Shown here piece by piece: positions 3,489-47,653 of a DNA stretch of 64,000 nucleotides. Positions within the stretch are counted from its first letter, which is position 1. Each line of letters opens with the position of its first letter. This stretch comes from Candidatus Gygaella obscura (GTDB lineage: Bacteria > Omnitrophota > Gorgyraeia > Gygaellales > Gygaellaceae), in contig JAVCCR010000032.1 of NCBI GenBank assembly GCA_030765485.1, positions 55,481 to 119,480 on the forward strand, read 5' to 3'. The notes beneath the pieces are model-generated. The model worked only from the letters and a program-made list of their open reading frames with translations, ran no database searches and was not told where the DNA came from. The translations under genes were made by a program, and so were the position numbers.

Positions 3489-5552
3489 ATGACAGATTTA
3501 AAATCAAGTTTACAAAAATTATCATTACTTTTAAAAGAAGACGTAGGTATATTGTTTAATAGCGATATATCAGAAAAATACGATGAAAATTTTTCATTTA
3601 AGGATATGGAAAATGCCTTTCCTTTGATCTGTGCTTTTTTTGGTAAGCGTATTTCTAGTTTTAGACAGCTGCGGAGTGCGTTAAATAAAATATCTCTTTT
3701 GCAAGATAAGGTAACAAACAGCGATAAAAAAATAAAAGAATCCGAGTACATCAGAAGACTTGGTTTGGTTATTTTATTTTATGAAGAGATAAAGATTTAT
3801 TTCGATGCTTTATCAAAAAGAAGGAATTTGGAAAGCATTTTGTTTAGCGATACACATATCAGAAAACTCGGTATAGCTTTATTGGATAAGAGCATAAGTG
3901 GATTTATTGTCTTTGTTGGAAGTGTAAATAAAAGTTCTAGCAGGGATGTTTTCTTAACGGATGCAGCCAAAAGGAAGTTAATAGTTTTTGATGACGCGTA
4001 TAAAACAGTTCAGTGCCTTATTAGGTTAAGTTTTATGTTTGGTTGTCAGAATAAAAAAGATTGGAAGTCTGTGTGTGATTACTGCAGGTCTAGTCTGCCT
4101 GCTGTAACTGTTTTATTAGATAATTTTAAAGAAATTGATTTAGCACAGGCCTGTGGAGCCTTAAATCTATCTGTTCCTATTATTACCAATAAAAGGTCAT
4201 TAAAGGTTAGGTATAGTAAGATTAAAAACGGTTACGATGCATTTATTAATATTAAAGAATCTGCTGTAATTATAGATAAGGTTGTAGAGGCAAGGAATAT
4301 TAAATTTGTTCCGGATTTGAGCCGTTTTCCAGTTGGTTTCGGTACAAAGTTTGAAGGGCAGATTATAAAAGATAAAGATTCTTTTATTGATTTTTCTCTT
4401 GGGTCTGCATGTGAGTTATTAGTAAATAGAAACCCTTCGCAGATCCGAGATGGCCAGATAGAAATTATTGGTAGCGATTTGGATAGTTTAAAAGCTGATG
4501 GATACAATAAAAGGCTTTTTATTTTAGTAGAGATGGTTACTAAAAGTGCCTCTAATGAATTTAATGCGGTTTTAGAACGTCAAATCCATAGATTTATTAA
4601 TTATATCGATGGTGTAACACATAGTGGACAAAGTGATTTTTTGAATATTTCAGTTAGTAGGAGTTCGTTTAGGAAGGGTTTAAGATTAAATGATATTGCT
4701 TTTTTTATTTATGCGATGATGCATAGGGAATATTCTAAAATTATAAATAAGATTCAAATAAAAATTATTACTGATAGAAAGCGTTTTGAAAAAGAATTAA
4801 GAAAATCCCGGGATATACACAGGACGCGTTTGGTAAAAGTTATCAATGAAACAGATGAATCCGTTAAAGAGTTTTATTCCTGTTCTATATGCCGCAGTTT
4901 TGCCTTAAATCATATATGTATTATTAGCCCTGAACATCCTGGTCTTTGCGGTTCTTATTCATTTCTTGATGCCAAGATTGCTTTTGAAATCGAGCCTTCA
5001 GGAGCAAATTATCCAATAAAAAAAGGAAAAGTTATTGATCGCAGGCTTGGACAGTGGCAAGGAGTGAATAGATACATTAAAAAAGTTACCAAAAATGCAG
5101 TTAAAAAAGTTAATCTTTATTCATTGATAGAATATCCGCATACCTGTTCTTTATGCTTTGAGTGTATTGTTGTAATCTTGCCGGAATTAAACGGTGTTAT
5201 GGTTGTGAGTAGAGATTATACTGGTAAAAATCCTCTTGGACTTGATTTTTCAAAATTGGCTCATCTATTGGGTTTTGGTGTTCAGTCTCCAGGAATGCTA
5301 GGTTCTAGCAGGGTTTTTCTATTAAGCAAAAAGTTTATGCCTCAAGAGGGGGGGGTAAAAAGAATTATTTGGATGCCCAGCAGTTTAAAGTATTTTTTGA
5401 CAAAGTATAATAAAGCAAGTCAAAAAAAGAGTAATTTAAAGAAAATATTCAGTAAGATTGCCGATGAGCATGATTGTACTTGCTTGGAGGATTTAGCAGA
5501 GTTTTTAAAGAAAAGAAAACACTCCTGTTTGAATATGAGCAGGATTATTTAA
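3489..5552 (+). CDS. acsB: acetyl-CoA synthase (CODH/ACS beta subunit, AcsB/CdhC family) homolog
   Basis: 687 aa. The C-terminal domain carries C465-x2-C468-x8-C477-x9-C487 (CSICRSFALNHICIISPEHPGLCG), the exact spacing of the A-cluster [4Fe-4S] ligands of ACS. About 66 residues downstream it has YPHTCSLCFECIV, where canonical ACS has TSCGCFE. The flanking similarity (PEHPGLCG, LYSLIEYP, GGVKRIIWMP) is ACS-like. Confidence 0.65.
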   Translation: MTDLKSSLQKLSLLLKEDVGILFNSDISEKYDENFSFKDMENAFPLICAFFGKRISSFRQLRSALNKISLLQDKVTNSDKKIKESEYIRRLGLVILFYEEIKIYFDALSKRRNLESILFSDTHIRKLGIALLDKSISGFIVFVGSVNKSSSRDVFLTDAAKRKLIVFDDAYKTVQCLIRLSFMFGCQNKKDWKSVCDYCRSSLPAVTVLLDNFKEIDLAQACGALNLSVPIITNKRSLKVRYSKIKNGYDAFINIKESAVIIDKVVEARNIKFVPDLSRFPVGFGTKFEGQIIKDKDSFIDFSLGSACELLVNRNPSQIRDGQIEIIGSDLDSLKADGYNKRLFILVEMVTKSASNEFNAVLERQIHRFINYIDGVTHSGQSDFLNISVSRSSFRKGLRLNDIAFFIYAMMHREYSKIINKIQIKIITDRKRFEKELRKSRDIHRTRLVKVINETDESVKEFYSCSICRSFALNHICIISPEHPGLCGSYSFLDAKIAFEIEPSGANYPIKKGKVIDRRLGQWQGVNRYIKKVTKNAVKKVNLYSLIEYPHTCSLCFECIVVILPELNGVMVVSRDYTGKNPLGLDFSKLAHLLGFGVQSPGMLGSSRVFLLSKKFMPQEGGVKRIIWMPSSLKYFLTKYNKASQKKSNLKKIFSKIADEHDCTCLEDLAEFLKKRKHSCLNMSRII

Positions 5553-10556: not shown

Positions 10557-11147
10557 ATGGTTTTTGGAGTTACAGGAGGTTTTGCTTGCGGTAAAAGTAC
10601 GGTTAGCAAGATGTTTCGTGATTTGGGTGCAAAATTAATTGATGCGGATAAAATTGCTCACGTTCTTTTAGATTCGCCCAAGTTAAAAAGAAGTTTAGTT
10701 TCTTATTTTGGGAAAGATATATTAACCAGGCAAAAGAAGATTAGTAGGAAAAAACTTGCGAATATTGTTTTTTCAAAACCAAACAGCCTGAGATTTCTTA
10801 ATAGTGTTGTTCATCCGGAGGTAATCAAAAAATTAAAATCCCGGATTGCTTCTTTCAGAAACAGAATATTGGTTTTGGATATTCCTTTGTTGTACGAGTC
10901 ACGCTTAGAAAATTTGGTTGATTATATTGTGGTGGTTAAGTGTTTAAAATTAATTTGTTTAAAGAGGGCACAAGAGAATAATTTTTCTAAATCGCAGGCT
11001 TTGAAAATAATCCAGGCACAATTGCCTTTAAGATATAAAGTTGAGCAAGCTGATTATGTAATTGATAATAGCTATTCGTTAAAAAAGACCAATATGGAGG
11101 TTAAAAAGACATGGCGGGATATGTTGCGAAAACAGAACAAGAAGTAA
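10557..11147 (+). CDS. coaE: dephospho-CoA kinase
   Basis: 196 aa with a P-loop, [12 protein letters not shown]. Confidence 0.85.
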
Positions 11148-11149
11148 AA

Positions 11150-12397
11150 ATGGATATCAGTAATCTTAAGGATATGAAAGTAACCGATCTTAATAAAATC
11201 GCTAGAGATCTTCGTGTCAATGGGGTTAGCGGATTGAAGAAACAGGATTTGATTTTTAAAATACTTCAGGCCCAGGCGGAAAAAGCCGGACTTATGTTCG
11301 GAGAAGGCACTTTAGAGATTTTACCAGAAGGCTTTGGGTTTTTAAGGTCGGCGAATTACAATTATTTGCCTTCACCTGATGATATTTATATTTCACCATC
11401 CCAGATAAGGAAATTTGATTTAAGGACTGGCGATACAGTCAGTGGTCAGATTAGGCCTCCTAAGGAAGGCGAGAAGTATTTCGCACTTTTAAAGGTAGAG
11501 GCGGTGAATTTTGAGAATCCTGAGAATTCAAAAGAAAAGGTTCTTTTTGATAATCTTACGCCCCTTTACCCGCAGGAGAAATTTATTCTTGAGACCAAGC
11601 CAGAAGAGGTGTCCATGCGGGTAATGAGCCTGTTGGCTCCTTTAGGCAAGGGCCAGCGTGCATTAATCGTGGCTCCGCCTTATAGCGGTAAAACCGTGCT
11701 TTTACAGAAAATCGGTAATGCCATAACAAACAACCACCCTGATGCGACATTAATGGTGCTTTTGATTGATGAGCGTCCAGAAGAGGTTACGGATATGCAG
11801 CGTAATGTTAAAGGAGAAGTAATTAGCTCTACTTTCGATGAGGCTCCGGAGCGTCATGTTCAGGTAGCGGAAATCGTGTTAGAGAAGGCTAAAAGGCTTA
11901 TTGAACATAAACGGGATGTTATAATTTTACTTGATAGTATTACCCGTTTAGCACGTGCCTATAACTCAGTAATGCCTCATAGCGGTAAGATTCTTTCAGG
12001 TGGTATTGATTCAAATGCCTTGCAGAAGCCAAAGAGGTTTTTTGGCGCAGCCCGTGCATTAGAAGAAGGAGGAAGTCTTACTATAATTGCTACCGCTTTA
12101 GTTGATACTGGAAGTCGTATGGATGATGTAATTTTTGAGGAGTTTAAAGGAACTGGCAATATGGAGCTTCAGCTTGATAGAAATCTATTCCAGCGCAGAA
12201 TATATCCGGCTATTGATATTAAGCGTTCTAACACGAGACACGAGGAATTGCTTCTTAAGGAAGATGAACTTACAAAAATATGGATTATGCGCAAAGTATT
12301 GAATGATTTGAATTCTGTAGAGGCAATGGAGCTTTTGATTCAAAAATTAAAAAAGACTAAGAATAATAAGGATTTTTTAAATAGTATGAACCAGTAG
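11150..12397 (+). CDS. rho: transcription termination factor Rho
   Basis: N-terminal Rho_N domain, cold-shock-like RNA-binding domain, and Walker A PPYSGKT. I chose the start at ATG 11150 (MDISNLKDM...) immediately after the coaE stop; the ORF track's upstream Met at 11111 overlaps coaE. Confidence 0.9.
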
Positions 12398-12413
12398 ATA
12401 AGGGAAAAAGAAT

Positions 12414-13769
12414 ATGAATAAAATAGCGTTTGTTTTGTTAAGTTTTATTTTATGTTCTGTGTTTGCTTTTGCTCAAGAGGTTGAGGAAATCCGTATTGTT
12501 ACTTATTATCCTTCTCCTTACGGAAGTTATACAGAGTTACGCAGTAACAGGATGGCCATTGGAGATAATTATAGCGATGCTGGCACTTACCAATGGGGGA
12601 CTAATATTAACACTAATGCTGATTTAATTGTTCAGCAAAATGTTGGAATTGGAACATCTAACCCCGATGCCCCGCTATCTTTTGCAAATTCATTAGGTGA
12701 TAAAATCCAACTTTATGATAATGGTAGTTTTACTACGTATGGTTTTGGTGTACAAAGTAATAACCTGCAATTATTGACTACCGATCATACTACGGATATT
12801 ACTTTTAATTATGGTTTTAGTGCTTCTGCTACGGAATTGATGAGGATAAAGGGTAATGGCAATGTCGGTATCGGAATCACGAATCCAACTGAAAAGTTAT
12901 ACGTAAACGGGAATGCCATAATTGGCAGTAGTAATGTCGATGCTACTCTTAATGGGGAGGGAGTGTTTCAGTCAAGCAGTAATTTAGCTGGGGCTGGGTT
13001 TATAGCTACTCCTTGGGTGTATGCACGAGCAATAGAAGGAGATCAAAGAGGATCTGGCTCTACTCTTATTACAATTGGTGGTAAAAATGGCTTTACCAGT
13101 GATGATGAAATTGGTTTAGTAACAAACGGAAAACTAAAAATGCTTATGGATTCAAATGGGTTAGTGACTTTTTTTGGTTTGCATTCTACTTCTCCAGGGA
13201 ATCTCGTATTTAATCAGGATAGTCAGGGTGATTTTGAGACTGATATTAATTTTGATTCTAGCGGGCGTATTGCTGGAGAGAGTGATATTTTTCGTGTTGC
13301 AAGCAAAGGAACTCACGATTTACGTTTAGCAACGAATTCAGTAGATGATAAAGTTACTATTAGAAATTCAGGTATGGTTGGTATCTTGGATACGACCCCC
13401 AGTTATACTTTAGATGTTAACGGTACTTTTAGGGCGTTTGGTATTACTGATTCATCAGATATAAGATGGAAGAAAAATATAACTAATCTCGAGACTCCTT
13501 TAGATAAACTTGCTAAGCTTAGGGGAGTAAGGTATCAGTGGAATCAAGAAGCCTATCCCGATAAGAATTTTGCTCCAGGTATGCAGATTGGTATTATTGC
13601 CCAAGAGCTCGAAGAGCAATATCCTGAGTTGGTGGACATAGATAGTGATGGCTATAAATCAATTCAATATGGAAAATTAACTGCTGTATTATTAGAGGGG
13701 ATCAAAGAGTTAAAACAAGAAAATGATATTTTAAAACAAAGAATCGCATCTTTGGAAGAAAATTTTTAG
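12414..13769 (+). CDS. secreted fibre-like protein with C-terminal intramolecular chaperone (peptidase S74 / endosialidase-chaperone-like) domain
   Basis: Signal peptide MNKIAFVLLSFILCSVFAFA. Repeated GNVGIGTxNPxxxLxV-type motifs typical of tail-fibre stalks. The C-terminal ~110 aa (DIRWKKNITNLETPLDKLAKLRGVRYQWN...GIIAQELEEQYPELV...YGKLTAVLLEGIKELKQE) match the self-cleaving chaperone domain of phage tail fibres and tailspikes. Confidence 0.6.
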   Translation: MNKIAFVLLSFILCSVFAFAQEVEEIRIVTYYPSPYGSYTELRSNRMAIGDNYSDAGTYQWGTNINTNADLIVQQNVGIGTSNPDAPLSFANSLGDKIQLYDNGSFTTYGFGVQSNNLQLLTTDHTTDITFNYGFSASATELMRIKGNGNVGIGITNPTEKLYVNGNAIIGSSNVDATLNGEGVFQSSSNLAGAGFIATPWVYARAIEGDQRGSGSTLITIGGKNGFTSDDEIGLVTNGKLKMLMDSNGLVTFFGLHSTSPGNLVFNQDSQGDFETDINFDSSGRIAGESDIFRVASKGTHDLRLATNSVDDKVTIRNSGMVGILDTTPSYTLDVNGTFRAFGITDSSDIRWKKNITNLETPLDKLAKLRGVRYQWNQEAYPDKNFAPGMQIGIIAQELEEQYPELVDIDSDGYKSIQYGKLTAVLLEGIKELKQENDILKQRIASLEENF

Positions 13770-13830: not shown

Positions 13831-14034
13831 ATGAAAAAGGAAATCCACCCAAAGTATAAAGATTGTACTATAGTCTGTGCATGCGGAGAGGTGATTCATA
13901 CGCGTTCTACAAAAGACAATATCCGTGTGGATATATGTTCTAAGTGTCATCCGTTTTTTACCGGAAAGCAGAAATTTATTGATTCTGCCGGACGCGTTGA
14001 AAAATTCAATAAAAAATATAAGAAAAACAAGTAA
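13831..14034 (+). CDS. rpmE: 50S ribosomal protein L31
   Basis: 67 aa with MKKEIHPKY and the zinc-ribbon cysteines CxC...CxxCHPFFTG. Confidence 0.9.
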
Positions 14035-24178: not shown

Positions 24179-25198
24179 ATGGAAGGGTTATTTAATCTAC
24201 CTGTTGTTTTTTTTACTTTAGTTATTCTAGTTATACTCTCAATGTTTTTTGCCCTTTCGGAAACAGCTTTTGTTGCTTTGAATAAGTTGCGGCTAAGGCA
24301 GCTTCTGAAAAAAAAGGTAAAAGGAGCTCAAAGCGCTCAGAGGGTTTTTTCGAAAATGGATCAGCTAATCTCTTTGATTCTTATTGGTAACAATTTTGTT
24401 AATATTGCGATTTCTGCTTTAGTGACGAGTGTTTTTATATTTAAGTTTGGACCTAAATGGGGTGTATTAATTGCTACATTCTGTGTAGGTATTTTTATAG
24501 TTATATTCTGCGAGATAATACCAAAACTGTTTGCTATTCAGTATTCTAAGCGTACGGCGCTTGTTTTAGCTCCATTTTTGGAATATTTAATAAAGCTTTT
24601 TTCTCCCTTGGTTAGCGTTTTTGCATCTTTTAGCAATTTCGTTTTAAGGATTTTCGGCGGGAAGCCCCAAAAAAGAATTCCACTATTATCAGAAGAAGAA
24701 CTTAGAATAATGATCGAACTTGGTAGAGAAGAGGGAGTTGTTACGGAACAAGAGCTTAAGATTCTTCATAAGACTTTTGATTTCAGCGATCTTAAGGCAA
24801 AGGATATTCTTATTTCCAAAGATGAAATCGTAGCAGTTAACATTAAAGATAGCGCTTCGGAACTGATGCGTATTTTGGTAGAAGAAGGACATTCCAGGAT
24901 TCCCGCATATGAAGGTACAATTGATAATGTTAAGGGTATAATTTATGCCAGAGACCTGCTTTATCTTTTAAGCCATAAGGATTTATTTTTAGTTTCTGAT
25001 ATAGTACATCCGGCTTATTTTATAGAAGGGGATAAGAAGATAAGCGAGCTTTTAAAGGAATTCCAGCAAAAAAAGTTACAGATTGCAATTGTAACTGATA
25101 GCGTAGGTCGAACCCTAGGGTTGGTTACTTTAGAAGATTTATTGGAAGAGATAGTTGGGGAGATAGAAGAAGACACTTTTAATATTCCAGTGAGATAG
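24179..25198 (+). CDS. CNNM/HlyC-CorC-family transporter (DUF21 + CBS pair)
   Basis: 339 aa with an N-terminal 4-TM DUF21 region followed by tandem CBS domains. No CorC_HlyC C-terminal domain. Confidence 0.8.
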   Translation: MEGLFNLPVVFFTLVILVILSMFFALSETAFVALNKLRLRQLLKKKVKGAQSAQRVFSKMDQLISLILIGNNFVNIAISALVTSVFIFKFGPKWGVLIATFCVGIFIVIFCEIIPKLFAIQYSKRTALVLAPFLEYLIKLFSPLVSVFASFSNFVLRIFGGKPQKRIPLLSEEELRIMIELGREEGVVTEQELKILHKTFDFSDLKAKDILISKDEIVAVNIKDSASELMRILVEEGHSRIPAYEGTIDNVKGIIYARDLLYLLSHKDLFLVSDIVHPAYFIEGDKKISELLKEFQQKKLQIAIVTDSVGRTLGLVTLEDLLEEIVGEIEEDTFNIPVR

Positions 25199-25227
25199 TT
25201 TTGATATTAGTCTAGACAGAGCTATTG

Positions 25228-25256
25228 TTGACATTGATTTTAAATTATGGTAGTAT
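25228..25256 (+). promoter_or_regulatory. sigma70-type promoter TTGACA-17-TAGTAT with extended -10 TG
   Basis: TTGACA at 25228-25233, a 17 bp spacer, and TGGTAGTAT ending at 25256. It lies 36 bp upstream of the small ORF at 25292. Confidence 0.6.
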
Positions 25257-25291
25257 CTTCTTAGATTATCAAGAGAAAGGAGCAGTTTGTT

Positions 25292-25438
25292 ATGGAACAA
25301 GGATATTGCGTAAAATGTAAAGCTAAAAGAGATATGAAAGACACACAAAATGTCACTCTAAAAAACGGCCGTTCAGCACTTAAGGGAAAATGTACTACCT
25401 GCGACACAAGCATGTTTAAGATTTTAGGAAAAAAGTAA
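25292..25438 (+). CDS. small zinc-ribbon protein (CxxC...CxxC, DUF5679-like), 48 aa
   Basis: The ORF MEQGYCVKCKAKRDMKDTQNVTLKNGRSALKGKCTTCDTSMFKILGKK is preceded by RBS AGGAG (25278-25282) and the promoter above. It is below the ORF-track size cut-off. Confidence 0.55.
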   Translation: MEQGYCVKCKAKRDMKDTQNVTLKNGRSALKGKCTTCDTSMFKILGKK

Positions 25439-25447
25439 AATTTTAAG

Positions 25448-25831
25448 TTGATAACTTCTAGAAAAAAAGCATATTTAGCAGCTAAGATAGCACAAGATAA
25501 GAAAGTTAAAGACCTTACGATTTTGGATATGCGTAAGGTCTGTAATTTTTGCAATTATTTCGTAGTTCTTACCGTTAGATCTAATCCTCAGTCACAGGCT
25601 GTTAAGGATGCTGTTAGTGAAGGATTCACCCAGCAGGGGATAGCGTATAGAATTAATGGAAATAACAGCGATTGGGTTTTGATTGATTCTTATGATGTTG
25701 TTGTGCATATTTTTGATGAGAATGCCAGGGATTTTTATAGTTTGGAACGCCTCTGGCAGAACGCAAGTCAGTTAAAATTACCCTCCTCAGTTAAAAATGG
25801 TCCAAAAAAAGTTAGAAGAAAACCTCGTTAA
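25448..25831 (+). CDS. rsfS: ribosomal silencing factor RsfS (Iojap)
   Basis: 127 aa with LTILDMRKVCNFCNYFVVLTVRSNPQSQAV. Confidence 0.85.
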   Translation: MITSRKKAYLAAKIAQDKKVKDLTILDMRKVCNFCNYFVVLTVRSNPQSQAVKDAVSEGFTQQGIAYRINGNNSDWVLIDSYDVVVHIFDENARDFYSLERLWQNASQLKLPSSVKNGPKKVRRKPR

Positions 25832-30856: not shown

Positions 30857-32680
30857 ATGAATCCGTCGGCTATTATTAAAAATTTATCCCAAGATAACGA
30901 CTTTTGTTTTTTTGATTCAGTTAAAATAGATAGGTTTAATCGCTATAGTTATCTTTTTACTGATCCGGTAGATATAATCACTACAAATAGTTTATCTCAG
31001 GTAAAGAGGCTTTTAAGACAGATAGAAAAAGCAAAAAAAAGATATTATCTTGGCGGGTTTTTAAGTTACGAATTGGCTGATTTTGTTGAACCGACGATAG
31101 GCTTTAAACAGGAGTATGATTTTCCTTTATTGTGGTTCGGTATCTATAAAAAGCCGATAGTCTTTAAAACAAATAAATCTGCAAGATCAGAGAATAGACA
31201 GTCTTCTTATTTTATTCAAAATCACAGGGTTAACATAACAGACAGAGAGTATTTTGAGAAGATTAAAAAAATTAAGAATTATATAAGAAAGGGCCAAACT
31301 TATCAGATTAATTTTACCTATAAAGATAAATTTAATTTTTTCGGTTCACCAATTGATTTTTATTTTGATTTAAGATCCAGGCAGCCAACCGGATTCAGCG
31401 CATATATTCATTTTAAAGATTCGTGTATTCTTTCTTTATCTCCGGAGTTATTTTTTCGTAAACGGGGTAGTTATATTTATACCCGGCCGATGAAGGGTAC
31501 GATTAAAAAAGGAAAAAACATTATAGATAATAGAAACAATATGAAAGCTTTAAGGGCAAGCGCCAAGGATAGAAGCGAGAATATTATGATTGTTGATCTT
31601 ATCCGTAACGACTTGGCAAGAATATCTATTGAAAGTTCTGTTCAAGCATTTGATTTATTTCGAATTGAGAAGTATAAGTCTCTTTTGCAGATGACTTCAT
31701 CAGTAAAAGCAAAAGTCGATAAAGATATTTGTTTTTTCGATTTGATTAAAAATGTTTTTCCTTCTGGTTCCGTCACGGGGGCGCCGAAGATAAGTTCGAT
31801 GAAACTTATTAAAGCACTTGAAAAAGAGCCGCGCAGGATCTATACGGGTTCTGTTGGTTTTATAACGCCTGATAACGATAGTTGTTTTAATGTTTCTATC
31901 CGGACAGTTTTGATAGATAAGAAAAAGCATGCTGCCGAAATGGGTATTGGAAGCGGTATAGTTTATGATTCTATAAGCAAAAAAGAACTAAAAGAATGCA
32001 GGCTCAAGGCAGATTTCTTAACCCATTTGGCCCAGAATGAGTTTAAATTGATTGAGACTATTCTTTTCTCGCAGAAAGAAAAATATTTTCTGCTTGATTA
32101 TCATTTTAAGAGATTATCTGAATCCGCAAGTTTTTTTGATTATTCTTTTAAGGCTTCTATGATTAAGGATAAGCTAAATTCTTACGCAAAAAGATTAAAG
32201 TTAAATAGCTGTCCTTATAAGGTTAGACTTCTTTTATCAAAGCAAGGCAAGATACAATTGACTCATTCTAGACTAAATACCAATAGAGAATCATTATATG
32301 TTAAAATCAGCCCTGAAAGAATAGATCCAAGCAATATATTTCTTTATCATAAAACTACCAATAGGTCTATATACGATAGAGGTTTAAGGAAATCAAGAGC
32401 ATCCGGTTTGTTTGATTTTATTTATTTAAACCAGAAAAATGAAATCTGTGAAAGCTCTATCGGAAACGTTGTTATAAAAAAAGGCTCTTTTTTCTTCACT
32501 CCTCCAATAAGCTGCGGATTGCTTCCCGGTGTTTATCGGGATTTTTTGATCAGTAAAAGCTTATTAAAAAATAGAATAAAGGAAAAGATTTTGTTTATGG
32601 AAGATTTGGTTAATTGCGATAAAATTTTTATTATTAATTCTGTAATAAAAATGTTCGAAGTAAAACTATTGACAAAATAA
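30857..32680 (+). CDS. pabBC: aminodeoxychorismate synthase component I fused to aminodeoxychorismate lyase (PabB-PabC fusion)
   Basis: 607 aa. The N-terminal ~390 aa are a chorismate-binding domain (PKISSMKLIKALEKEPRRIYTGSVGF) and the C-terminal ~200 aa are aminotransferase class IV-like. Confidence 0.75.
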   Translation: MNPSAIIKNLSQDNDFCFFDSVKIDRFNRYSYLFTDPVDIITTNSLSQVKRLLRQIEKAKKRYYLGGFLSYELADFVEPTIGFKQEYDFPLLWFGIYKKPIVFKTNKSARSENRQSSYFIQNHRVNITDREYFEKIKKIKNYIRKGQTYQINFTYKDKFNFFGSPIDFYFDLRSRQPTGFSAYIHFKDSCILSLSPELFFRKRGSYIYTRPMKGTIKKGKNIIDNRNNMKALRASAKDRSENIMIVDLIRNDLARISIESSVQAFDLFRIEKYKSLLQMTSSVKAKVDKDICFFDLIKNVFPSGSVTGAPKISSMKLIKALEKEPRRIYTGSVGFITPDNDSCFNVSIRTVLIDKKKHAAEMGIGSGIVYDSISKKELKECRLKADFLTHLAQNEFKLIETILFSQKEKYFLLDYHFKRLSESASFFDYSFKASMIKDKLNSYAKRLKLNSCPYKVRLLLSKQGKIQLTHSRLNTNRESLYVKISPERIDPSNIFLYHKTTNRSIYDRGLRKSRASGLFDFIYLNQKNEICESSIGNVVIKKGSFFFTPPISCGLLPGVYRDFLISKSLLKNRIKEKILFMEDLVNCDKIFIINSVIKMFEVKLLTK

Positions 32681-32738: not shown

Positions 32739-33290
32739 ATGAAAGAAATAAGAATACACGCTCGCGCCGGTCAAGGCGCAATAACAACGGCAGTAATATT
32801 AGGACAAGCTTTTTTTCAGGAAGGAAAGCATGTCTATGCTTTTCCTCATTTTGGAGCAGCGAGAATGGGTGCTCCTATGAATGCTTTTGTGCGCGTTGAT
32901 GATGATCCTGTAAGGTTGAGGAGTCAGATTTATTATCCTGATTATCTTTTAGTAATAGATGATACTCTTTTAAGGGGTTTTAATTGTTTCGCTGGCTTTA
33001 AGGACAGGGGAATTGCAGTAATTAATAGCAATCAAAGTTCGCATAATACGGGTCTTACAAAAATGCAAAAGGCTTATTGTCTTCCCGGAAATGAAATTGC
33101 CTTAAAAACAATAGGTAAACCTTTAGGTAATACTGCTATTTTAGGTGCTTTTGTGGCTGCTACGGATGAGTTGAAGCTAGATTCTTTATTGGCAAGTATA
33201 GAAAAACGTTTTCCTGAGAAAATCCGTAAAGTAAATATTGAGGCTGCAAAGCAGGGTTATGAATTTGTAAAAAATATAAGGAATAAATAA
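32739..33290 (+). CDS. porG: pyruvate:ferredoxin oxidoreductase gamma subunit
   Basis: 183 aa PorG-like, in a four-gene porGDAB arrangement. Confidence 0.85.
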   Translation: MKEIRIHARAGQGAITTAVILGQAFFQEGKHVYAFPHFGAARMGAPMNAFVRVDDDPVRLRSQIYYPDYLLVIDDTLLRGFNCFAGFKDRGIAVINSNQSSHNTGLTKMQKAYCLPGNEIALKTIGKPLGNTAILGAFVAATDELKLDSLLASIEKRFPEKIRKVNIEAAKQGYEFVKNIRNK

Positions 33291-33291
33291 T

Positions 33292-33546
33292 ATGTTTGGT
33301 CCTTTGACAGCAAAACCAGGTTCAAGTCAAAATAACAAGACAGGTTCTTGGAGGATTAAAGCAAGGCCTAAATTCTTAAAAAAAGAATGCATTGGTTGCA
33401 AGCTTTGTAGTTTAGTTTGTCCGGAAGGCTGCATCACAGGAACTGATAAGGATTCAATCAAGTGTGATCTTGATTATTGTAAAGGCTGCGGTTTATGTGT
33501 AAAGATTTGTCCTAAAAAAGATATTGTAATGGAAGAGGAAAAATGA
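33292..33546 (+). CDS. porD: pyruvate:ferredoxin oxidoreductase delta subunit (2x[4Fe-4S] ferredoxin)
   Basis: 84 aa with two CxxCxxCxxxCP motifs. Confidence 0.85.
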   Translation: MFGPLTAKPGSSQNNKTGSWRIKARPKFLKKECIGCKLCSLVCPEGCITGTDKDSIKCDLDYCKGCGLCVKICPKKDIVMEEEK

Positions 33547-34718
33547 GACAGTTTCTTGAAGGTTCACAGGCCATTGCTAAGATTGTTTCTCTTTGTCGTC
33601 CGGGTGTAATATCAGCATATCCGATAACTCCTCAAACACATATTGTTGAAGGTTTGGCTAAATATGTTGCAGACGGTAAATTAAAAAGTGAGTTTGTCAA
33701 TGTAGAAAGCGAACATTCCGCAGCCTCAGTAGTTTTAGGAGGTTCTGCCGGAGGGGCAAGAGTATTTACCGCAACCAGCTCTCAAGGGCTTTTTCTGATG
33801 GCGGAAGTAGTGTTTAATATTGCCGGTATGAGGCTACCGGTAGTTATGCTTGTGGCTAATCGTGCAATATCTGCTCCGATAAATATCTGGAATGACCATC
33901 AGGACAGTGTTTCTTTAAGAGACTCTGGATGGATTCAGATGTATGCGGAAAATATACAAGAGGCAGTTGATGCTACGCTTTTTGCTTATAAAATCGCCGA
34001 AAATAAAGATATAATGCTTCCGGTTATGGTATGTATGGATGGGTTTATACTTACACATGGTTTAGAGCCTGTTGATATGCCGCAGGAACAGGATGTTAAG
34101 AAATTCTTGCCTGATTATAAGGCAATATTAAAACTGGATGTTGATAATCCTATAAGTATGGGGTTATTGGCTGATCCGGATTATTATTTAGAAACAAGAT
34201 ATGCTATTCAAAAGACCCATGATGACATATTAGAACTTATTCCTAAACTTTCTGAGGAGTTTGAAGGAGTATTTGGTAGGAAAGGTATTGGTTTAGTGGA
34301 AGAATACTATACTAAAGATGCAGATAAGGTTATTGTGGCTATGGGTTCAGTGACTGGAACAATAAAAGAGGCAGTTGATATTATGCGTGCCAAGAAGAAA
34401 AAAGTAGGGTTACTGAAAATAAATACCTACAGACCATTTCCATACAAGGAAGTTTATAGAGTACTTTCAAAAGCAAAGTCAGTTGCCGTATTGGATAAGG
34501 CAGTTTCCCTGGGTGCTTACGGGCCTTTATATGCGGATATAGCCAGTGCTTTTACCGGAAAGTCGAAATTACCCAAGATAAGCGGTTTTATTGCAGGTTT
34601 AGGTGGAAGAGATATTATGCTTGATACGATTTATGGTATTTTTAAAAAACTTAACGGTACAGTAAAACCGTGTGAATATGTAGATATTAAACAGGAATTA
34701 TTAAGAGATCATTTATGA
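33543..34718 (+). CDS. porA: pyruvate:ferredoxin oxidoreductase alpha subunit
   Basis: 391 aa with PorA-like N-terminal AYPITPQT. Confidence 0.9.
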   Translation: MRQFLEGSQAIAKIVSLCRPGVISAYPITPQTHIVEGLAKYVADGKLKSEFVNVESEHSAASVVLGGSAGGARVFTATSSQGLFLMAEVVFNIAGMRLPVVMLVANRAISAPINIWNDHQDSVSLRDSGWIQMYAENIQEAVDATLFAYKIAENKDIMLPVMVCMDGFILTHGLEPVDMPQEQDVKKFLPDYKAILKLDVDNPISMGLLADPDYYLETRYAIQKTHDDILELIPKLSEEFEGVFGRKGIGLVEEYYTKDADKVIVAMGSVTGTIKEAVDIMRAKKKKVGLLKINTYRPFPYKEVYRVLSKAKSVAVLDKAVSLGAYGPLYADIASAFTGKSKLPKISGFIAGLGGRDIMLDTIYGIFKKLNGTVKPCEYVDIKQELLRDHL

Positions 34719-35608
34719 GTAAAGATACGTTTAATTCAGAAAAACCTTATCTTTTAAAACCAGGACATACTGCATGCGCCGGGTGCGGGCAGTCTTTAGC
34801 TGCACGTCTTGTAATTGATGCAGCAGGTAAAAATACTATAGTAGTTAACAATACAGGATGTTTAGAGGTGTTTAGCACTAAATGTCCTGAGTCAAGCTGG
34901 GGTGTTCCTTGGGTGCATTCGCTTTTTGAGAATGCTGCTGCTGTGGCTTCAGGAGTTGAAGCGTCTTTAAAATACTTCGGGAAAAAAGATAAAATTAATG
35001 TTATTGCCCAGGCAGGAGATGGAGGAACCGCGGATATTGGTTTGCAGGCTTTATCGGGAATGCTTGAACGGGGACATGACATATTATATGTTTGTTACGA
35101 TAACGAAGCCTATATGAATACAGGTATTCAGCGTAGCGGTCTTACGCCGTTTAACTCTAATACAACAACAACTCCGCCAGGAAGTGAATCTAAGGGTAAT
35201 TGGAGGCCTAAAAAGCCGATTCATGAGATTTGCAATGCACATGGTATTGCTTATGTTGCAACTTCTACTATAGCCTATCCTCAGGATATACAGCAAAAGG
35301 TGAAGAAGGCACTTTCTATTAAGGGTCCAAAATACATGCAGATACATGTGCCTTGTCCTTTGGGCTGGCGTTTTGACCCGTCTTTGTCTTTAGAAGTGGC
35401 TAAACTTGCTGTAGAAACCGGGCTTTATCCGATTATAGAATATGAAAATATGAAGCTTTCCAGGGTGAGAAAAATTACTCCTAAACCAGTAGCGGAATAC
35501 TTAAAAACCCAGGGAAGATTTAAACATCTTTTAAATGATGAAGAGGCATTGTTGCAGATTCAGAAAATTGCCGATACAAATATAGAAGTATACGGTCTTA
35601 AAGTCTAG
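34715..35608 (+). CDS. porB: pyruvate:ferredoxin oxidoreductase beta subunit (TPP-binding)
   Basis: 297 aa with CAGCG and GDGG TPP motifs. Confidence 0.9.
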   Translation: MSKDTFNSEKPYLLKPGHTACAGCGQSLAARLVIDAAGKNTIVVNNTGCLEVFSTKCPESSWGVPWVHSLFENAAAVASGVEASLKYFGKKDKINVIAQAGDGGTADIGLQALSGMLERGHDILYVCYDNEAYMNTGIQRSGLTPFNSNTTTTPPGSESKGNWRPKKPIHEICNAHGIAYVATSTIAYPQDIQQKVKKALSIKGPKYMQIHVPCPLGWRFDPSLSLEVAKLAVETGLYPIIEYENMKLSRVRKITPKPVAEYLKTQGRFKHLLNDEEALLQIQKIADTNIEVYGLKV

Positions 35609-42531: not shown

Positions 42532-42545
42532 CAAATTTAAAACTT

Positions 42546-42617
42546 TGCCCGGTAGTGTAATTGGTAACACACGAGAATTTGGGTCTCGCTTTTCTGGTTC
42601 GAGTCCAGACCGGGCAG
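42546..42617 (+). tRNA. tRNA-Gln (anticodon UUG)
   Basis: Cloverleaf folded by hand: acceptor TGCCCGG/CCGGGCA (U1-A72, discriminator G), D-stem GTGT/ACAC, anticodon stem CGAGA/TCTCG with loop ATTTGGG, T-stem TCTGG/CCAGA with loop TTCGAGT. CCA is not encoded. Confidence 0.8.
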
Positions 42618-42636
42618 AATCTGAAGGTAAACGATT

Positions 42637-45623: not shown

Positions 45624-46184
45624 ATGAAGTTAATAGTTGGTTTAGGCAACCCAGGGGTTAAATACAGAAATTCGAGACACAATTTAGGTTTTTTGATAGC
45701 TGACAGTTTGACATCAAGATATAAGTTAAAATATAAGATTCTCAATGCCTGTTCGTCAAGAATTGCAAAGCATAAGAATTTTGTTATAGGTAAACCGCAG
45801 ACTTATATGAATTTATCCGGATCTGCGGTTAAATGCTTAGTAAAGAAGTTTAGGTTAGAAACAAAAGATATACTTGTGGTTTTTGATGATATAAATCTGG
45901 AGTTGGGACGATTTAAGATTACTTACGGTGGTTCTTATTATGGTCACAATGGTCTTAAGTCAGTAATAGAGTCTTTACACACTAAAGATGTGGCGAGATT
46001 GCGATTAGGGATAGGTACATTTTCTTCTGAAGATTTGACAGATTTTGTATTAGGTAATCTTACCCGAAAAGAAAAAAATTCAATTGATTCACAGCTTGAA
46101 ACTATAATCGATTGCTGTCAGGATTGGGTTGAAGAAGGAATAGATTTTACAATGAATAAATATAACAAAAGGAAGAAAGAATGA
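45624..46184 (+). CDS. pth: peptidyl-tRNA hydrolase
   Basis: 186 aa beginning MKLIVGLGNPG..Y..SRHN.G. Confidence 0.9.
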   Translation: MKLIVGLGNPGVKYRNSRHNLGFLIADSLTSRYKLKYKILNACSSRIAKHKNFVIGKPQTYMNLSGSAVKCLVKKFRLETKDILVVFDDINLELGRFKITYGGSYYGHNGLKSVIESLHTKDVARLRLGIGTFSSEDLTDFVLGNLTRKEKNSIDSQLETIIDCCQDWVEEGIDFTMNKYNKRKKE

Positions 46185-46504
46185 AAAATTTTTACGAAGC
46201 AATTTATATTTTAAAACCTAATCTTAGTAAAGAACAGCTCGACGCTCAAATAAACCATCTTAAAGAGCTTGTAACTAATGAAAAAGGAGAGATTAAGGAG
46301 GCTTCTTTTTGGCAGGAGAAAAGAAAACTTGCTTATCCGATAAAAAAGTTCCAGGAGGGGGTTTATTACTTGATTCAGTTTGACGCCGATCCAAGTCTTA
46401 TCGCTAAGCTGAGAAAATCATATAGATTGAACGAGAATATCTTAAGGTATCTGATTATTAAAAAAGAAAATTCAGCAAAAAAAATAGATTCAATAAAGGA
46501 GTAA
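46181..46504 (+). CDS. rpsF: 30S ribosomal protein S6
   Basis: 107 aa beginning YEAIYILKPNL, in the rpsF-ssb-rpsR-rplI order. Confidence 0.85.
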   Translation: MKNFYEAIYILKPNLSKEQLDAQINHLKELVTNEKGEIKEASFWQEKRKLAYPIKKFQEGVYYLIQFDADPSLIAKLRKSYRLNENILRYLIIKKENSAKKIDSIKE

Positions 46505-46508
46505 TGAT

Positions 46509-46955
46509 ATGGCAAATTTAAATAAAGTTCTTCTTATTGGCAATCTAACCCGTGACCCGGAATTGCGTTACACTCCTAATGGTACGGCTGTTGTTAATTT
46601 AGGTTTAGCCGTTAACAGAAGATATAAGGATAAAGCAGGAGAACAAAAAGACGACACCTGTTTTTTGACAGTTGTAGTGTGGAATAAGCAGGCGGAAGCA
46701 TGTAATCAATATCTGCAAAAAGGAAGAAGTATTTTTGTAGAAGGAACATTGCAGCAGCGTTCCTGGCAGGACGCTCAAGGGCAAAAAAGAACAGCTATGG
46801 ATATTAGGGCTGACAGAGTGCAGTTTTTGGGTGCGCAATCTACAGTCAATACCCAATCTCAACCTTCGAAAGAGCCTGTTTTTGAAGATACAAATTTAGA
46901 AAATAGCGGTCAAGATGTAGCATCTTGGTTAGAGGAGGATAAAAATAATGATTAG
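46509..46955 (+). CDS. ssb: single-stranded DNA-binding protein
   Basis: 148 aa with the OB fold LNKVLLIGNLTRDPELRYTPNG. The C-terminus ends ...SWLEEDKNND, without the usual DDDIPF tip. Confidence 0.9.
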   Translation: MANLNKVLLIGNLTRDPELRYTPNGTAVVNLGLAVNRRYKDKAGEQKDDTCFLTVVVWNKQAEACNQYLQKGRSIFVEGTLQQRSWQDAQGQKRTAMDIRADRVQFLGAQSTVNTQSQPSKEPVFEDTNLENSGQDVASWLEEDKNND

Positions 46956-47202
46956 GAAAAAAGATAGAAAAAAACGACGTATTTCTACAGTGCCATACAG
47001 AAAAAGATATTGCAGATTCTGTAAGGAAAGGGATAAGGAAATTGATTATAAAGATATTAGATTAGTTGAGCGTTTTGTCGGCGACCGTTTAAAAATCGTT
47101 CCCAGGCGCGCCAGTGGTCTTTGTGCTAAGCATCAAAGAAGAGTATCTGAAGCTATTAAAAGAGCAAGATTTTTGGCAATAATCGATTACGTAAAAAGAT
47201 AA
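46948..47202 (+). CDS. rpsR: 30S ribosomal protein S18
   Basis: 84 aa with YRKRYCRFCKE..IDYKD...RFV. Confidence 0.9.
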   Translation: MIRKKDRKKRRISTVPYRKRYCRFCKERDKEIDYKDIRLVERFVGDRLKIVPRRASGLCAKHQRRVSEAIKRARFLAIIDYVKR

Positions 47203-47203
47203 A

Positions 47204-47650: not shown

Positions 47651-47653
47651 TTT

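What the first reader, a model, noticed from the sequence alone, without database searches (positions are those of the whole stretch)
12414..13769. Phage-tail-fibre-like secreted protein with self-cleaving chaperone domain in a core housekeeping locus
Between rho and rpmE-prfA lies a signal-peptide protein with tail-fibre-like GNVGIGTxNP repeats and a C-terminal intramolecular chaperone (peptidase S74 / endosialidase chaperone) domain. That domain normally drives trimerisation of phage tail fibres or tailspikes and then auto-cleaves. No other phage genes flank it. It may be a domesticated fibre used as a cell-surface adhesin or S-layer-like structure, or a remnant of a tailocin-like module.
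Basis: partly seen in the sequence, partly recalled or inferred. Interest (0 to 1): 0.55.

Follow-up and report, generated by a model that had tools for sequence, protein, structure and literature searches.

The report
Secreted self-cleaving fibre protein of Omnitrophota
This gene encodes an exported, phage-tail-fibre-like protein with a self-cleaving folding domain; it belongs to a large, modular fibre family of the tiny, probably host-dependent Omnitrophota bacteria, the same kind of fibre that Bdellovibrio uses to grip prey, so it is a new member of a known kind and not a phage remnant.

Summary
Window 12414-13769 (+) is an intact 451-aa ORF between rho and rpmE. It has a Sec-type leader, three "VGIGxxxPxxxL" fibre loops and a C-terminal Peptidase_S74 chaperone domain (Pfam E 3e-16) with the SDxxxK motif (S348/K353).

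The window is an Omnitrophota MAG. All 64 kb are housekeeping genes, including BamA, Skp and Lpx, so the cell is diderm. No phage or tailocin genes are present.

In nine of the ten closest Omnitrophota rho loci, rho abuts rpmE directly, so the gene is a lineage-specific insertion. Its codon usage matches the host's.

The shaft is most similar to the solved Bdellovibrio MAT fibres (family profile vs Bd2133, E 1e-33). Caulton et al. 2024 already list an Omnitrophica S74 fibre among MAT proteins.

The new part is the mature N-terminus (ExITITTYYPSPYGxY...). It is a leader module that, wherever a source names the organism, occurs almost only in Omnitrophota. It is found in >1000 protein clusters carrying swapped tips (S74, Peptidase_G2, C1q, YadA-head and others). 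Every member whose context I checked is a single gene among housekeeping genes.

Best reading: a Sec-exported, S74-assembled, self-cleaved trimeric surface adhesin. Verdict: new member of a known kind, moderate interest.

The parts
11111..12397 (+). rho (upstream flank of the insertion)
   Evidence: Pfam Rho_N, Rho_RNA_bind and ATP-synt_ab on the called gene. It is 76-85% identical to Rho of ten Omnitrophota MAGs.
12400..12405 (+). Shine-Dalgarno-like AAGGGA, 8 nt before the ATG. No separate promoter or terminator is evident.
   Evidence: Sequence read. The promoter and terminator scan was not above shuffled expectation. Co-transcription with rho and rpmE is an inference.
12414..12473 (+). Sec-type signal peptide, aa 1-20, predicted cleavage AFA|QE. 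There is no lipobox (residue -1 to Cys14 is Leu, and the Cys is not conserved).
   Evidence: Sequence. An equivalent leader directly precedes the conserved module in family alignments. The AF2 model gives helix 3-18.
12474..12638 (+). N-terminal module typical of Omnitrophota, aa 21-75 (QEVEEIRIVTYYPSPYGSYTELRSNRMAIGDNY...ADLIVQQ). Proposed cell-proximal anchoring or sorting module.
   Evidence: Y31, Y32, P33, P35, G37 and Y39 are invariant in alignment A4. The profile finds 1077 cluster representatives at E<=1e-10, with the module at the N-terminus in all 150 listed. Nearly all named carriers are Omnitrophota: and P0021, P0036, P0037, P0067 and P0071. The one exception is P0003, labelled Desulfobacteraceae. 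No Pfam or NCBIfam model matches it. The fold is unresolved: pLDDT is about 48-60 in both models.
12639..12908 (+). Fibre repeat unit, aa 76-165, bounded by capping loops 1 (aa 76-89, nt 12639-12680) and 2 (aa 150-163, nt 12861-12902).
   Evidence: The loops match the MAT/MyRF capping-loop list in Caulton Suppl. Fig. 18. The unit is 53% identical to repeats of P0068, which lacks the leader module. It aligns to Bd2133 and Bd2439 chains. Model pLDDT is 70-95.
12909..13373 (+). Variable region, aa 166-320. Candidate specificity-determining part of the fibre.
   Evidence: At most 19% identity to any of eight homologues, although the flanking modules are conserved. Model confidence is low. It is covered by phage tail-fibre PHROG profiles phrog_8215 (aa 164-444) and phrog_5668 (aa 45-450).
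13374..13454 (+). Last beta-helix turn, with capping loop 3 (aa 321-334, MVGILDTTPSYTLD) and the stretch up to the cleavage site (…FGITDS347). This would be the distal tip of the mature fibre.
   Evidence: Aligns with MyRF 'RVGINTDRPDEALVVHG' just upstream of its cleavage site. Model pLDDT is 81-87.
13455..13472 (+). Autoproteolysis motif S348-D-I-R-W-K353 (Ser-Lys dyad). Predicted cleavage is immediately N-terminal to S348.
   Evidence: This is position 1 of the Pfam S74 profile. It aligns with 'SDRRIK' of phage S16 gp37 and with the dyad position of MyRF. It is invariant or nearly invariant in alignments A1 and A2. SDxxxK is the catalytic motif according to Caulton et al..
13455..13769 (+). 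C-terminal intramolecular chaperone domain (Peptidase_S74), aa 348-451, plus the stop codon. It ends in a long helix (aa 419-450, nt 13668-13763).
   Evidence: Pfam E 3.3e-16. pLDDT exceeds 90. Foldseek matches: MyRF ICA domain 7dc3 (E 1e-6, TM-score on target 0.68), GA-1 chaperone 3gud (prob 1.0), T5 4uw8 and K1F 3gw6.
13831..14034 (+). rpmE (downstream flank of the insertion), followed by prfA, prmC and murA.
   Evidence: Pfam Ribosomal_L31. In nine relatives rpmE follows rho after 18-272 nt with no gene in between.

Best explanation
The gene encodes a cellular (non-viral) fibre of the kind described in Bdellovibrio as 'mosaic adhesive trimer' (MAT) fibres.

Proposed mechanism:
1. The 49-kDa precursor is exported by Sec, and the 20-aa leader is removed.
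2. The C-terminal S74 domain (aa 348-451) acts as an intramolecular chaperone. It brings three chains into register and nucleates the intertwined beta-helical shaft.
3. The Ser348/Lys353 dyad then cuts the chain just before S348 and releases a 12-kDa chaperone.
4. This leaves a trimer of about 35-kDa chains (aa 21-347).
5. The conserved N-terminal module (aa 21-75) holds the fibre on the Omnitrophota cell envelope.
6. The variable region and the exposed distal beta-helix (aa 166-347) bind a surface ligand, probably a glycan, on a partner or prey cell.

The gene is a lineage-specific insertion into the conserved rho-rpmE junction. It is probably read through from the housekeeping operon and so expressed constitutively.

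Shown here: domain identity, motif conservation, shaft homology to solved MAT fibres, family modularity, the insertion, and the absence of a phage context.

Inferred: trimerisation, cleavage, surface location, ligand binding and co-transcription.
For: S74 domain and dyad:
- Pfam match and conserved motif.
- Confident model of the domain and fold matches to MyRF, GA-1, T5 and K1F chaperones.

Shaft:
- Sequence hits to Bd2133, Bd2439, Bd1334 and Bd3182 chains.
- The family profile's best PDB hit is Bd2133 at E 1.2e-33, ahead of any phage fibre.
- Foldseek also hits Bd fibres.
- Three capping loops match the published MAT/MyRF motif.

Cellular origin:
- Omnitrophota contig.
- The whole window is housekeeping and includes BamA, Skp, LpxD, LpxC-FabZ, LpxA and LpxI, so an outer membrane exists.
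- GC, GC3 and codon adaptation lie within 1.5 SD of the other 52 ORFs.
- Only two distant hits (28-31% identity) in 2.9 million viral contigs.

Insertion:
- polA-glgA-coaE-rho-rpmE-prfA-prmC-murA is conserved in the closest Omnitrophota loci.
- rho is followed directly by rpmE in nine of the ten closest.

Modular family:
- The N-module profile hits 1077 clusters at E<=1e-10.
- Of 145 top members, only 29 carry S74. Others carry Peptidase_G2 IMC, Gp53-like_C, YadA_head, C1q, ApeC and other tips.
- Different modules of this protein have different best relatives: 71%, 53%, <=19% and 66% identity.

Literature:
- MAT fibres sit on the Bdellovibrio surface, and S74 cleavage was shown for Bd3182.
- An Omnitrophica S74 fibre is listed as a MAT protein.
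- Omnitrophota are ultra-small and carry host-dependence traits.
Against: - No experiment or expression data exist for this protein or any Omnitrophota homologue.
- Only monomer models could be made, so trimerisation is untested. The N-module and aa 176-290 are low-confidence.
- The protein (mature about 327 aa) is a third the length of Bdellovibrio MATs (about 1000 aa).
- Its N-module (about 55 aa) is shorter than the ~130-aa MAT N-domain. Homology between the two could not be tested, because no Bdellovibrio N-domain sequence was obtainable.
- How a Sec-exported trimer would cross the outer membrane is unknown, and also unresolved for MATs. A periplasmic location is not excluded.
- A predatory or symbiotic lifestyle is inferred for the phylum, not for this organism. 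The window also encodes a fairly complete anabolism (trp, his and Wood-Ljungdahl CdhC genes).
Confidence: 0.62

Rival explanations
1. It is a self-assembling surface or envelope fibre with a role other than partner recognition. Examples are a coat or S-layer-like spacer, attachment to particles or biofilm matrix, or a periplasmic or peptidoglycan-associated structure. The chemistry (Sec export, S74 folding, cleavage) is the same, but there is no host or prey ligand.
For: - The molecular features say nothing about the ligand.
- The protein is short.
- The gene sits where it would be expressed constitutively with rho and rpmE, as a structural component might be.
- No outer-membrane translocator is evident nearby.
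Against: - The family shows strong tip diversification on a constant N-module. That is the signature of recognition proteins, not of a uniform coat.
- The variable region is <=19% identical between homologues.
- The solved relatives are adhesins.
- The gene is absent from the same locus in all the closest relatives, so it is not a core structural component.
Confidence: 0.2
2. It is a remnant of a prophage or of a tailocin or contractile-injection module: a leftover tail-fibre gene with no present cellular role.
For: The strongest library matches outside Pfam are phage tail-fibre and baseplate PHROGs (E down to 2.6e-29). S74 domains are best known from phage fibres and spikes.
Against: - No phage, integrase, tail, sheath or baseplate genes in 64 kb.
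- No tRNA or flanking repeats at the site.
- A Sec signal peptide, which cytoplasmically assembled virion fibres lack (established knowledge).
- An intact ORF with host-like codon usage.
- No close viral relatives.
- Six full-length or near-full-length homologues examined are also single genes among housekeeping genes (and a second gene in L082). Three further contexts (P0200, P0138, P0049) also lack phage structural genes.
- More than 1000 clusters share a cellular leader module.
Confidence: 0.03
3. It is a released (not anchored) product, for example a soluble lectin-like trimer, a bacteriocin-like receptor-binding protein, or a decoy that blocks phage receptors.
For: - No recognisable membrane anchor, lipobox or beta-barrel translocator.
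- Small leader-bearing proteins of 75-107 aa exist that look too short to be anchored fibres.
Against: - No hit to any defence-system model (PADLOC).
- No toxin or enzymatic domain.
- The strict conservation of the mature N-terminus across more than 1000 clusters argues for a common docking partner rather than free release.
Confidence: 0.08

Closest known systems
Bdellovibrio bacteriovorus MAT (mosaic adhesive trimer) fibres, S74 subgroup (e.g. Bd3182; Caulton et al. 2024, PMC10769870)
   Same: - Signal peptide, then a conserved N-terminal module, then a beta-helical shaft with VGIGxxxPxxxL capping loops, then a C-terminal S74 domain with SDxxxK.
- The shaft is detectably homologous to solved MAT chains.
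- Family-level tip swapping, including non-S74 tips such as C1q/TNF-like.
- Cellular genes scattered around the genome, not in prophages.
- The authors list an Omnitrophica S74 fibre (A0A2H0LB00) as a MAT protein.
   Different: - About one third the length (451 vs about 1000 aa).
- The conserved N-module is about 55 aa with an ITITTYYPSPYGxY signature, against a ~130-aa beta-rich domain in Bdellovibrio. Homology between the two is untested.
- Different phylum and a much larger, more diverse family.
- No localisation, cleavage or predation data.
Phage tail fibres and tailspikes with a C-terminal intramolecular chaperone (K1F endosialidase, T5 pb1 L-shaped fibre, S16 gp37, GA-1 neck appendage)
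   Same: S74 chaperone fold and Ser-Lys motif, with a beta-helical segment preceding the cleavage site.
   Different: - Has a Sec leader and a cellular N-module instead of a virion-attachment domain.
- No phage genes around it.
- The family profile scores Bd2133 (E 1e-33) above S16 gp37 (E 1e-21).
Myelin regulatory factor (MyRF) ICA domain
   Same: Best structural match of the model (7dc3, E 1e-6, TM-score on target 0.68). It shares the capping loop and the SDxxxK-type cleavage site.
   Different: MyRF is a eukaryotic membrane-bound transcription factor. The resemblance is limited to the last beta-helix turn plus the chaperone domain.
Trimeric autotransporter adhesins (YadA/UspA1 type)
   Same: Secreted trimeric fibrous adhesins. 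Some leader-bearing Omnitrophota family members even carry YadA_head or UspA1 repeats.
   Different: This protein has no C-terminal beta-barrel anchor or translocator domain. Trimerisation is instead driven by a cleavable S74 chaperone.

Membership tests
Peptidase_S74 / C-terminal intramolecular chaperone domain (CIMCD) | Significant match to the family profile above the curated threshold | tested here: met
   PF13884, 59.7 bits against a cut-off of 22, E 3.3e-16, profile positions 1-57 of 58.
Peptidase_S74 / C-terminal intramolecular chaperone domain (CIMCD) | Catalytic Ser and Lys in an SDxxxK motif at the start of the domain | tested here: met
   S348-D-I-R-W-K353. It aligns to the S16 gp37 and MyRF sites. 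It is invariant in A1 and at least 90% conserved in A2.
Peptidase_S74 / C-terminal intramolecular chaperone domain (CIMCD) | Chaperone fold at the C-terminus, directly after a beta-helical segment | tested here: met
   The model has pLDDT >90 for aa 350-451, ending in helix 419-450. Foldseek hits to 7dc3, 3gud, 4uw8 and 3gw6.
Peptidase_S74 / C-terminal intramolecular chaperone domain (CIMCD) | Trimer-dependent autoproteolytic release of the domain | not testable with these tools
   Needs biochemistry, or at least a multimer model. Only monomer prediction was available.
MAT (mosaic adhesive trimer) fibres, Caulton et al. 2024 | N-terminal signal peptide | tested here: met
   Read from the sequence (MNK, hydrophobic core, AFA|QE). 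Conserved across family alignments. No dedicated predictor was available.
MAT (mosaic adhesive trimer) fibres, Caulton et al. 2024 | Conserved ~130-aa beta-rich domain immediately after the signal peptide | not testable with these tools
   A conserved module does follow the leader, but it is about 55 aa long. No Bdellovibrio N-domain sequence or solved structure could be obtained for comparison. Its model is low-confidence.
MAT (mosaic adhesive trimer) fibres, Caulton et al. 2024 | Beta-helical shaft with capping-loop motif (V-G-[I]-G/N-x-x-x-P-x-x-x-L), homologous to solved MAT shafts | tested here: met
   Three loops match Suppl. Fig. 18 sequences. Bd2133: E 2.1e-6 with the single sequence and 1.2e-33 with the profile. 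Foldseek hits to Bd1334, Bd2133 and Bd3182.
MAT (mosaic adhesive trimer) fibres, Caulton et al. 2024 | Family-level mosaicism: constant base, exchangeable tips (S74 and non-S74) | tested here: met
   29 of 145 leader-bearing proteins have S74. Others carry Peptidase_G2, Gp53-like_C, C1q, YadA_head, ApeC and other tips. Best relatives differ module by module.
MAT (mosaic adhesive trimer) fibres, Caulton et al. 2024 | Cell-surface location and a role in contact with other cells | not testable with these tools
   Requires microscopy, fractionation or genetics in an uncultured phylum.
Prophage / tailocin tail-fibre gene | Lies within a cluster of phage tail, baseplate or lysis genes, or has close relatives in viral genomes | tested here: not met
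   All 64 kb are housekeeping. Only two distant viral-contig hits. No integrase, tRNA or repeats at the site.
Trimeric autotransporter adhesin | C-terminal YadA-type beta-barrel membrane anchor | tested here: not met
   No such Pfam hit at E<=1. The C-terminus is the S74 domain.

The most novel reading that the evidence does not exclude
The conserved mature N-terminus (ExITITTYYPSPYGxYxELR...) may be a previously undescribed docking or sorting signal characteristic of Omnitrophota. It would plug a very large, recombining repertoire of fibre tips (more than 1000 clusters: S74, Peptidase_G2, C1q, YadA-head, Cys-rich and even 75-107-aa mini-proteins) onto one common envelope receptor. That would give these ultra-small cells a modular, phage-like host-recognition system. 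Its genes are typically single insertions inside housekeeping operons (rho|rpmE, pheS|pheT, groEL|guaB, the aromatic amino-acid operon), which could guarantee constitutive expression.
Probability: 0.3. Interest if true: 0.6.

Novelty: new member of a known kind. Interest (0 to 1): 0.38.

Why it matters
Omnitrophota are abundant and uncultured, and are thought to live attached to, or preying on, other microbes. So far the molecules proposed for that contact are pili and giant ORFs.

A small, tractable, self-processing fibre with a defined cleavage site is an easy protein to express. Its family, with one constant base and hundreds of different tips, offers a direct route to finding what these cells bind to.

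It also extends the Bdellovibrio MAT concept to a second, unrelated lineage of putative predators or symbionts. That supports the view that S74-assembled fibres are a general bacterial cell-recognition device and not only a phage part.

For genome annotation, it is a caution that a 'tail fiber domain-containing protein' in a housekeeping locus need not indicate a prophage.

Tried and rejected
- Prophage or tailocin remnant: rejected after Pfam scans of 30 further ORFs and the called genes around the locus found only housekeeping functions, and a viral-contig scan gave only two distant hits.
- Defence system: PADLOC gave no hit.
- NCBIfam gave no hit.
- Mobile-element insertion signature: no flanking direct or inverted repeats beyond chance-size matches, and no tRNA or Rfam element nearby.
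- Own promoter or terminator: the scan was not above shuffled background.
- Paralogues in the window: none (tblastn and motif scan).
- Search with the 55-aa N-module in the 5.8-billion-protein index returned only proteins of 107 aa or less. This was apparently a length effect of that tool. It was useful for names but not for architecture, so the exhaustive representative search was used instead.
- A second AF2 run with a deeper alignment (145 sequences) did not resolve the N-module (pLDDT about 48-60).
- Comparison with the Bdellovibrio MAT N-domain could not be done, because no such sequence was reachable with the tools.
- Literature searches for Omnitrophota together with tail fibre or S74 found no dedicated study. 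The only mention is one line in Caulton et al., Suppl. Table S3.
Full report
**1. What is in the sequence**

Window 12414-13769 (+) is an intact 451-aa ORF with an ATG start. It begins 16 nt after the rho stop codon, behind a Shine-Dalgarno-like AAGGGA. It ends 61 nt before rpmE. All neighbours are on the same strand and tightly packed. A promoter and terminator scan gave nothing above shuffled expectation. Co-transcription with the surrounding housekeeping genes is therefore likely, but it is inferred.

The protein reads as follows:
- aa 1-20: signal peptide (MNKIAFVLLSFILCSVFAFA|QE).
- aa 21-75: a conserved N-terminal module.
- aa 76-165: a fibre repeat bounded by two loops, NVGIGTSNPDAPL and NVGIGITNPTEKL.
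- aa 166-320: a variable region.
- aa 321-347: a third loop (MVGILDTTPSYTL) and the last shaft turn.
- aa 348-451: the S74 domain.

A motif scan of all six frames of the window found the three loops, the SDxRxK motif and the YYPxPYG motif only in this ORF. The one exception was a single chance loop-like match elsewhere.

**2. Checking the domain claims**

- Pfam gives Peptidase_S74 (PF13884) at E 3.3e-16, 59.7 bits against a cut-off of 22. The match covers the whole profile from position 1, which is the catalytic serine.
- PHROGs gives 41 matching families, and nearly all of the best 25 are tail-fibre or baseplate families. The best are E 2.6e-29 and 4e-27, and some cover aa 45-450.
- NCBIfam and PADLOC give nothing.
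- Against PDB sequences the protein hits several chains:
  - the S74-containing distal tail fibre of phage S16 (6f45);
  - the MyRF ICA domain (7dc3);
  - with its shaft, several Bdellovibrio bacteriovorus fibres: Bd2133 8ond, Bd2439 8ol4, Bd1334 8oml and 8on4, and Bd3182 8ojn.
- In those alignments S348-D-I-R-W-K353 lies on the SDxxxK cleavage motif. S348, D349 and K353 are invariant in a 9-sequence alignment and at least 90% conserved in a 56-sequence alignment.
- An AlphaFold2 monomer model has mean pLDDT 71.7. Confidence is above 90 for aa 350-451, which ends in a 30-residue helix, and 70-95 for aa 70-170. It is poor for aa 20-70 and 176-290.
- Foldseek against the PDB returned the following:
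  - the MyRF ICA domain (E 1e-6, TM-score on target 0.68);
  - the Bd1334, Bd2133, Bd3182 and Bd2439 fibres;
  - T4 gp34;
  - the T5 L-shaped fibre with its chaperone;
  - the GA-1 and K1F intramolecular chaperones.

If cleavage occurs before S348, as shown for Bd3182 at S782, the mature chain is aa 21-347 (34.9 kDa, pI 4.4) and the released chaperone is 12.1 kDa.

**3. Whose gene is it?**

The identical protein lies on an ENA metagenome contig whose neighbours are all housekeeping genes. Rho of the window is 76-85% identical to Rho of ten Omnitrophota MAGs.

Pfam scans of the remaining large ORFs show only core functions. These include argS, recJ, the trp and his genes, PFOR, dnaB, BamA, Skp, LpxD, an LpxC-FabZ fusion, LpxA and LpxI. 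The organism is therefore a diderm with lipid A, and no phage, tailocin or secretion-system genes occur in 64 kb. Only one tRNA (Gln, 42545-42618) is present, and no other Rfam element.

The GC content (0.366), GC3 (0.257) and codon adaptation (0.724) of the fibre gene are within 1.5 SD of the other 52 ORFs.

**4. A lineage-specific insertion**

In the closest Omnitrophota loci the block polA-glgA-coaE-rho-rpmE-prfA-prmC-murA is conserved, with minor gaps. Nine loci have rpmE directly after rho, separated by 18-272 nt with no gene in between. A tenth locus, L005, has a different downstream region and also lacks a fibre gene.

The fibre gene is therefore an addition to a conserved operon junction in this lineage only. 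No flanking repeats or other mobile-element signature were found. No protein in the 5.8-billion-sequence collection, apart from the identical copy (P0001), is more than 36% identical to it over most of its length; higher identities (up to about 70%) are confined to short stretches, mainly the S74 end.

**5. The family**

The full-length search gave 1531 hits. The named hits include 'tail fiber domain-containing protein' from Omnitrophica, Desulfobacterales/Desulfobacteraceae and Ferruginibacter MAGs, and hypothetical proteins from Bacteroidota (Saprospiraceae, Dyadobacter).

Alignment revealed a sharply conserved mature N-terminus, (E)ExITITTYYP(S/A)PYGxYxELRxxRMAIGDxY...ADLVVEG, placed directly after the signal-peptide cleavage site. 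A profile of this module gave these results:
- Every named hit in the indexed search was Omnitrophota or Omnitrophica, apart from one labelled only 'bacterium'.
- The exhaustive search of 1.84 billion representatives gave 4129 proteins at E<=1e-3, 1077 at E<=1e-10 and 72 at E<=1e-30. The module was at the N-terminus in all 150 listed hits, and their lengths ranged from 93 to 614 aa.
- Named cluster members are again Omnitrophota 'tail fiber domain-containing proteins'.
- One carrier from the first search, P0003, is labelled Desulfobacteraceae.

Of 145 top members, only 29 carry S74. Others carry Peptidase_G2 (a different autoproteolytic intramolecular chaperone), Gp53-like_C, YadA_head, UspA1 repeats, C1q, ApeC or an ice-binding-like beta-roll. 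Most have no Pfam domain, and some are fragments.

Within the window's protein, each module has a different best relative:
- N-module: 71% identity to P0082.
- Repeat 76-165: 53% to P0068, a protein that lacks the leader module.
- Variable region: at most 19% to any homologue.
- Capping loop plus S74: 66% to P0003.

This is the pattern of a recombining, tip-swapping family.

**6. Genomic contexts of relatives**

Every homologue whose contig I looked up is a single gene with no phage structural genes nearby:

| Protein | Position |
|---|---|
| P0082 | between groEL and guaB |
| second leader-bearing gene, same contig as P0082 | between nadC and uvrB |
| P0036 | between an M48 peptidase and a class II aminoacyl-tRNA synthetase gene |
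| P0067 | just upstream of recA |
| P0167 (107-aa leader-bearing protein) | between pheS and pheT |
| P0255 (non-S74 tip) | inside an aromatic amino-acid operon; its start overlaps the upstream stop by 4 nt |
| P0200 (106-aa leader-bearing protein) | among housekeeping genes, immediately followed by a 425-aa ORF |
| P0138 (91-aa leader-bearing protein) | after a small HTH gene near a contig end |
| P0049 (closest S74 relative) | among small ORFs of unknown function near a pilin-like gene |

The placement inside housekeeping operons may simply reflect small, gene-dense genomes. I did not test it statistically.

**7. Comparison with what is known**

Caulton et al. 2024 (PMC10769870) define the Bdellovibrio MAT fibres by the following features:
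- a signal peptide;
- a conserved ~130-aa beta-rich N-domain;
- a long trimeric beta-helical shaft with capping loops;
- either an S74 domain (SDxxxK, cleavage shown for Bd3182) or another adhesive tip;
- surface or vesicle localisation during predation.

Their Suppl. Fig. 18 loop sequences (e.g. NVGIGTTNPSGILH; MyRF RVGINTDRPDEALV) match the three loops here.

A profile of the present family finds Bd2133 as its best solved relative (E 1.2e-33). That is ahead of phage S16 gp37 (1.4e-21), Bd1334 (1.1e-20), MyRF (5.6e-19) and a phage fibre, 8jov (1.9e-16).

Their Suppl. [quoted passage not shown] 2023. Seymour et al. themselves discuss Tad and type IV pili, giant ORFs and translocases as symbiosis traits, but not fibres. 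Full-text searches found no dedicated work on these proteins in Omnitrophota.

**8. Mechanism proposed**

*Shown:* domain composition, motif conservation, shaft homology to MAT fibres, cellular context, the insertion, and family modularity.

*Inferred from established S74 and MAT biology:*
- Sec export.
- S74-nucleated trimerisation.
- Ser348/Lys353 autoproteolysis that releases a 104-aa chaperone.
- A mature trimer anchored by the N-module, with aa 166-347 as the distal, ligand-binding part.

*Unknown:* how the fibre reaches the cell surface, what the N-module docks to, and what the ligand is.

**9. Verdict**

- The 'surface adhesin' interpretation is the best supported.
- The 'tailocin remnant' interpretation is rejected.

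The gene is a new, unusually short member of the already described class of cellular S74/MAT-like fibres. What is not in the literature I could search is the N-terminal module typical of Omnitrophota and the size and tip diversity of the family it defines. That is the part worth following up. Interest is moderate (0.38).

Noticed in passing
window 12474-12638 (aa 21-75); also P0121-P0240, P0241-P0384: The mature N-terminus ExITITTYYP(S/A)PYGxYxELR is a leader module typical of Omnitrophota. It has 1077 cluster representatives at E<=1e-10 and is N-terminal in all 150 listed hits. No Pfam or NCBIfam model covers it, and its fold was not resolved by AF2 monomer models. It may be an undescribed docking or sorting signal.
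   Followed up: partly
P0138, P0167, P0177, P0184, P0200, P0206, P0208 (loci L087, L089, L090): Complete small proteins (74-107 aa) on long contigs carry the same signal peptide and ITITTYYPSPYG leader, followed by short unrelated tails. P0200 is immediately followed by a 425-aa ORF with no Pfam hit, which could be a split fibre gene.
   Followed up: partly
L090 8001-8324; L093 8001-9668; L082 835-1452 and 8001-9326; L083; L084: Leader-bearing genes sit as single insertions within or beside conserved housekeeping operons: pheS|pheT, the aromatic amino-acid operon (with a 4-nt start/stop overlap), nadC|uvrB, groEL|guaB and upstream of recA. This parallels rho|rpmE in the window. I did not test whether it exceeds what gene-dense small genomes would give by chance.
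   Followed up: partly
P0034, P0042, P0049 (locus L092 10001-11053): These are among the closest relatives of the S74 domain (66% identity over about a quarter of the query). In them the domain is internal: it is followed by further GNVGIGTTSP fibre repeats and an unrelated C-terminal domain, not by the usual terminal helix. The context is cellular (GreA, Rrf2, a pilin-like N_methyl protein).
   Followed up: no
window 52875-54197 and 30857-32680: Two fused genes: LpxC with a FabA/FabZ-like dehydratase domain (440 aa), and a chorismate-binding (PabB-like) domain with a class IV aminotransferase (PabC-like) domain (607 aa).
   Followed up: no
window 3489-5552: An acetyl-CoA synthase subunit (CdhC/ACS) lies next to a pyridine-nucleotide-disulphide oxidoreductase. 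Together with the PFOR genes at 32739-35608, this suggests Wood-Ljungdahl-type carbon metabolism alongside complete trp and partial his operons. That is a fairly self-sufficient anabolism for a putative symbiont.
   Followed up: no
window 46184-47654 and 25198-25797: Stretches of about 1.5 kb and 0.6 kb contain no ORF of 150 aa or more. The first lies just upstream of dnaB and may hold small ribosomal-protein or ssb genes. Rfam and ARAGORN found nothing there.
   Followed up: no
L003 4808-4989 and L010 7266-7538: Two Omnitrophota relatives have enlarged rho-rpmE spacers (181 and 272 nt), against 18-107 nt in the others. L003's spacer contains a long inverted repeat (…CTCACTCAGTAAGG…TTCTGAGTGAGGGG…). 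No fibre-gene remnant was detected by tblastn.
   Followed up: partly
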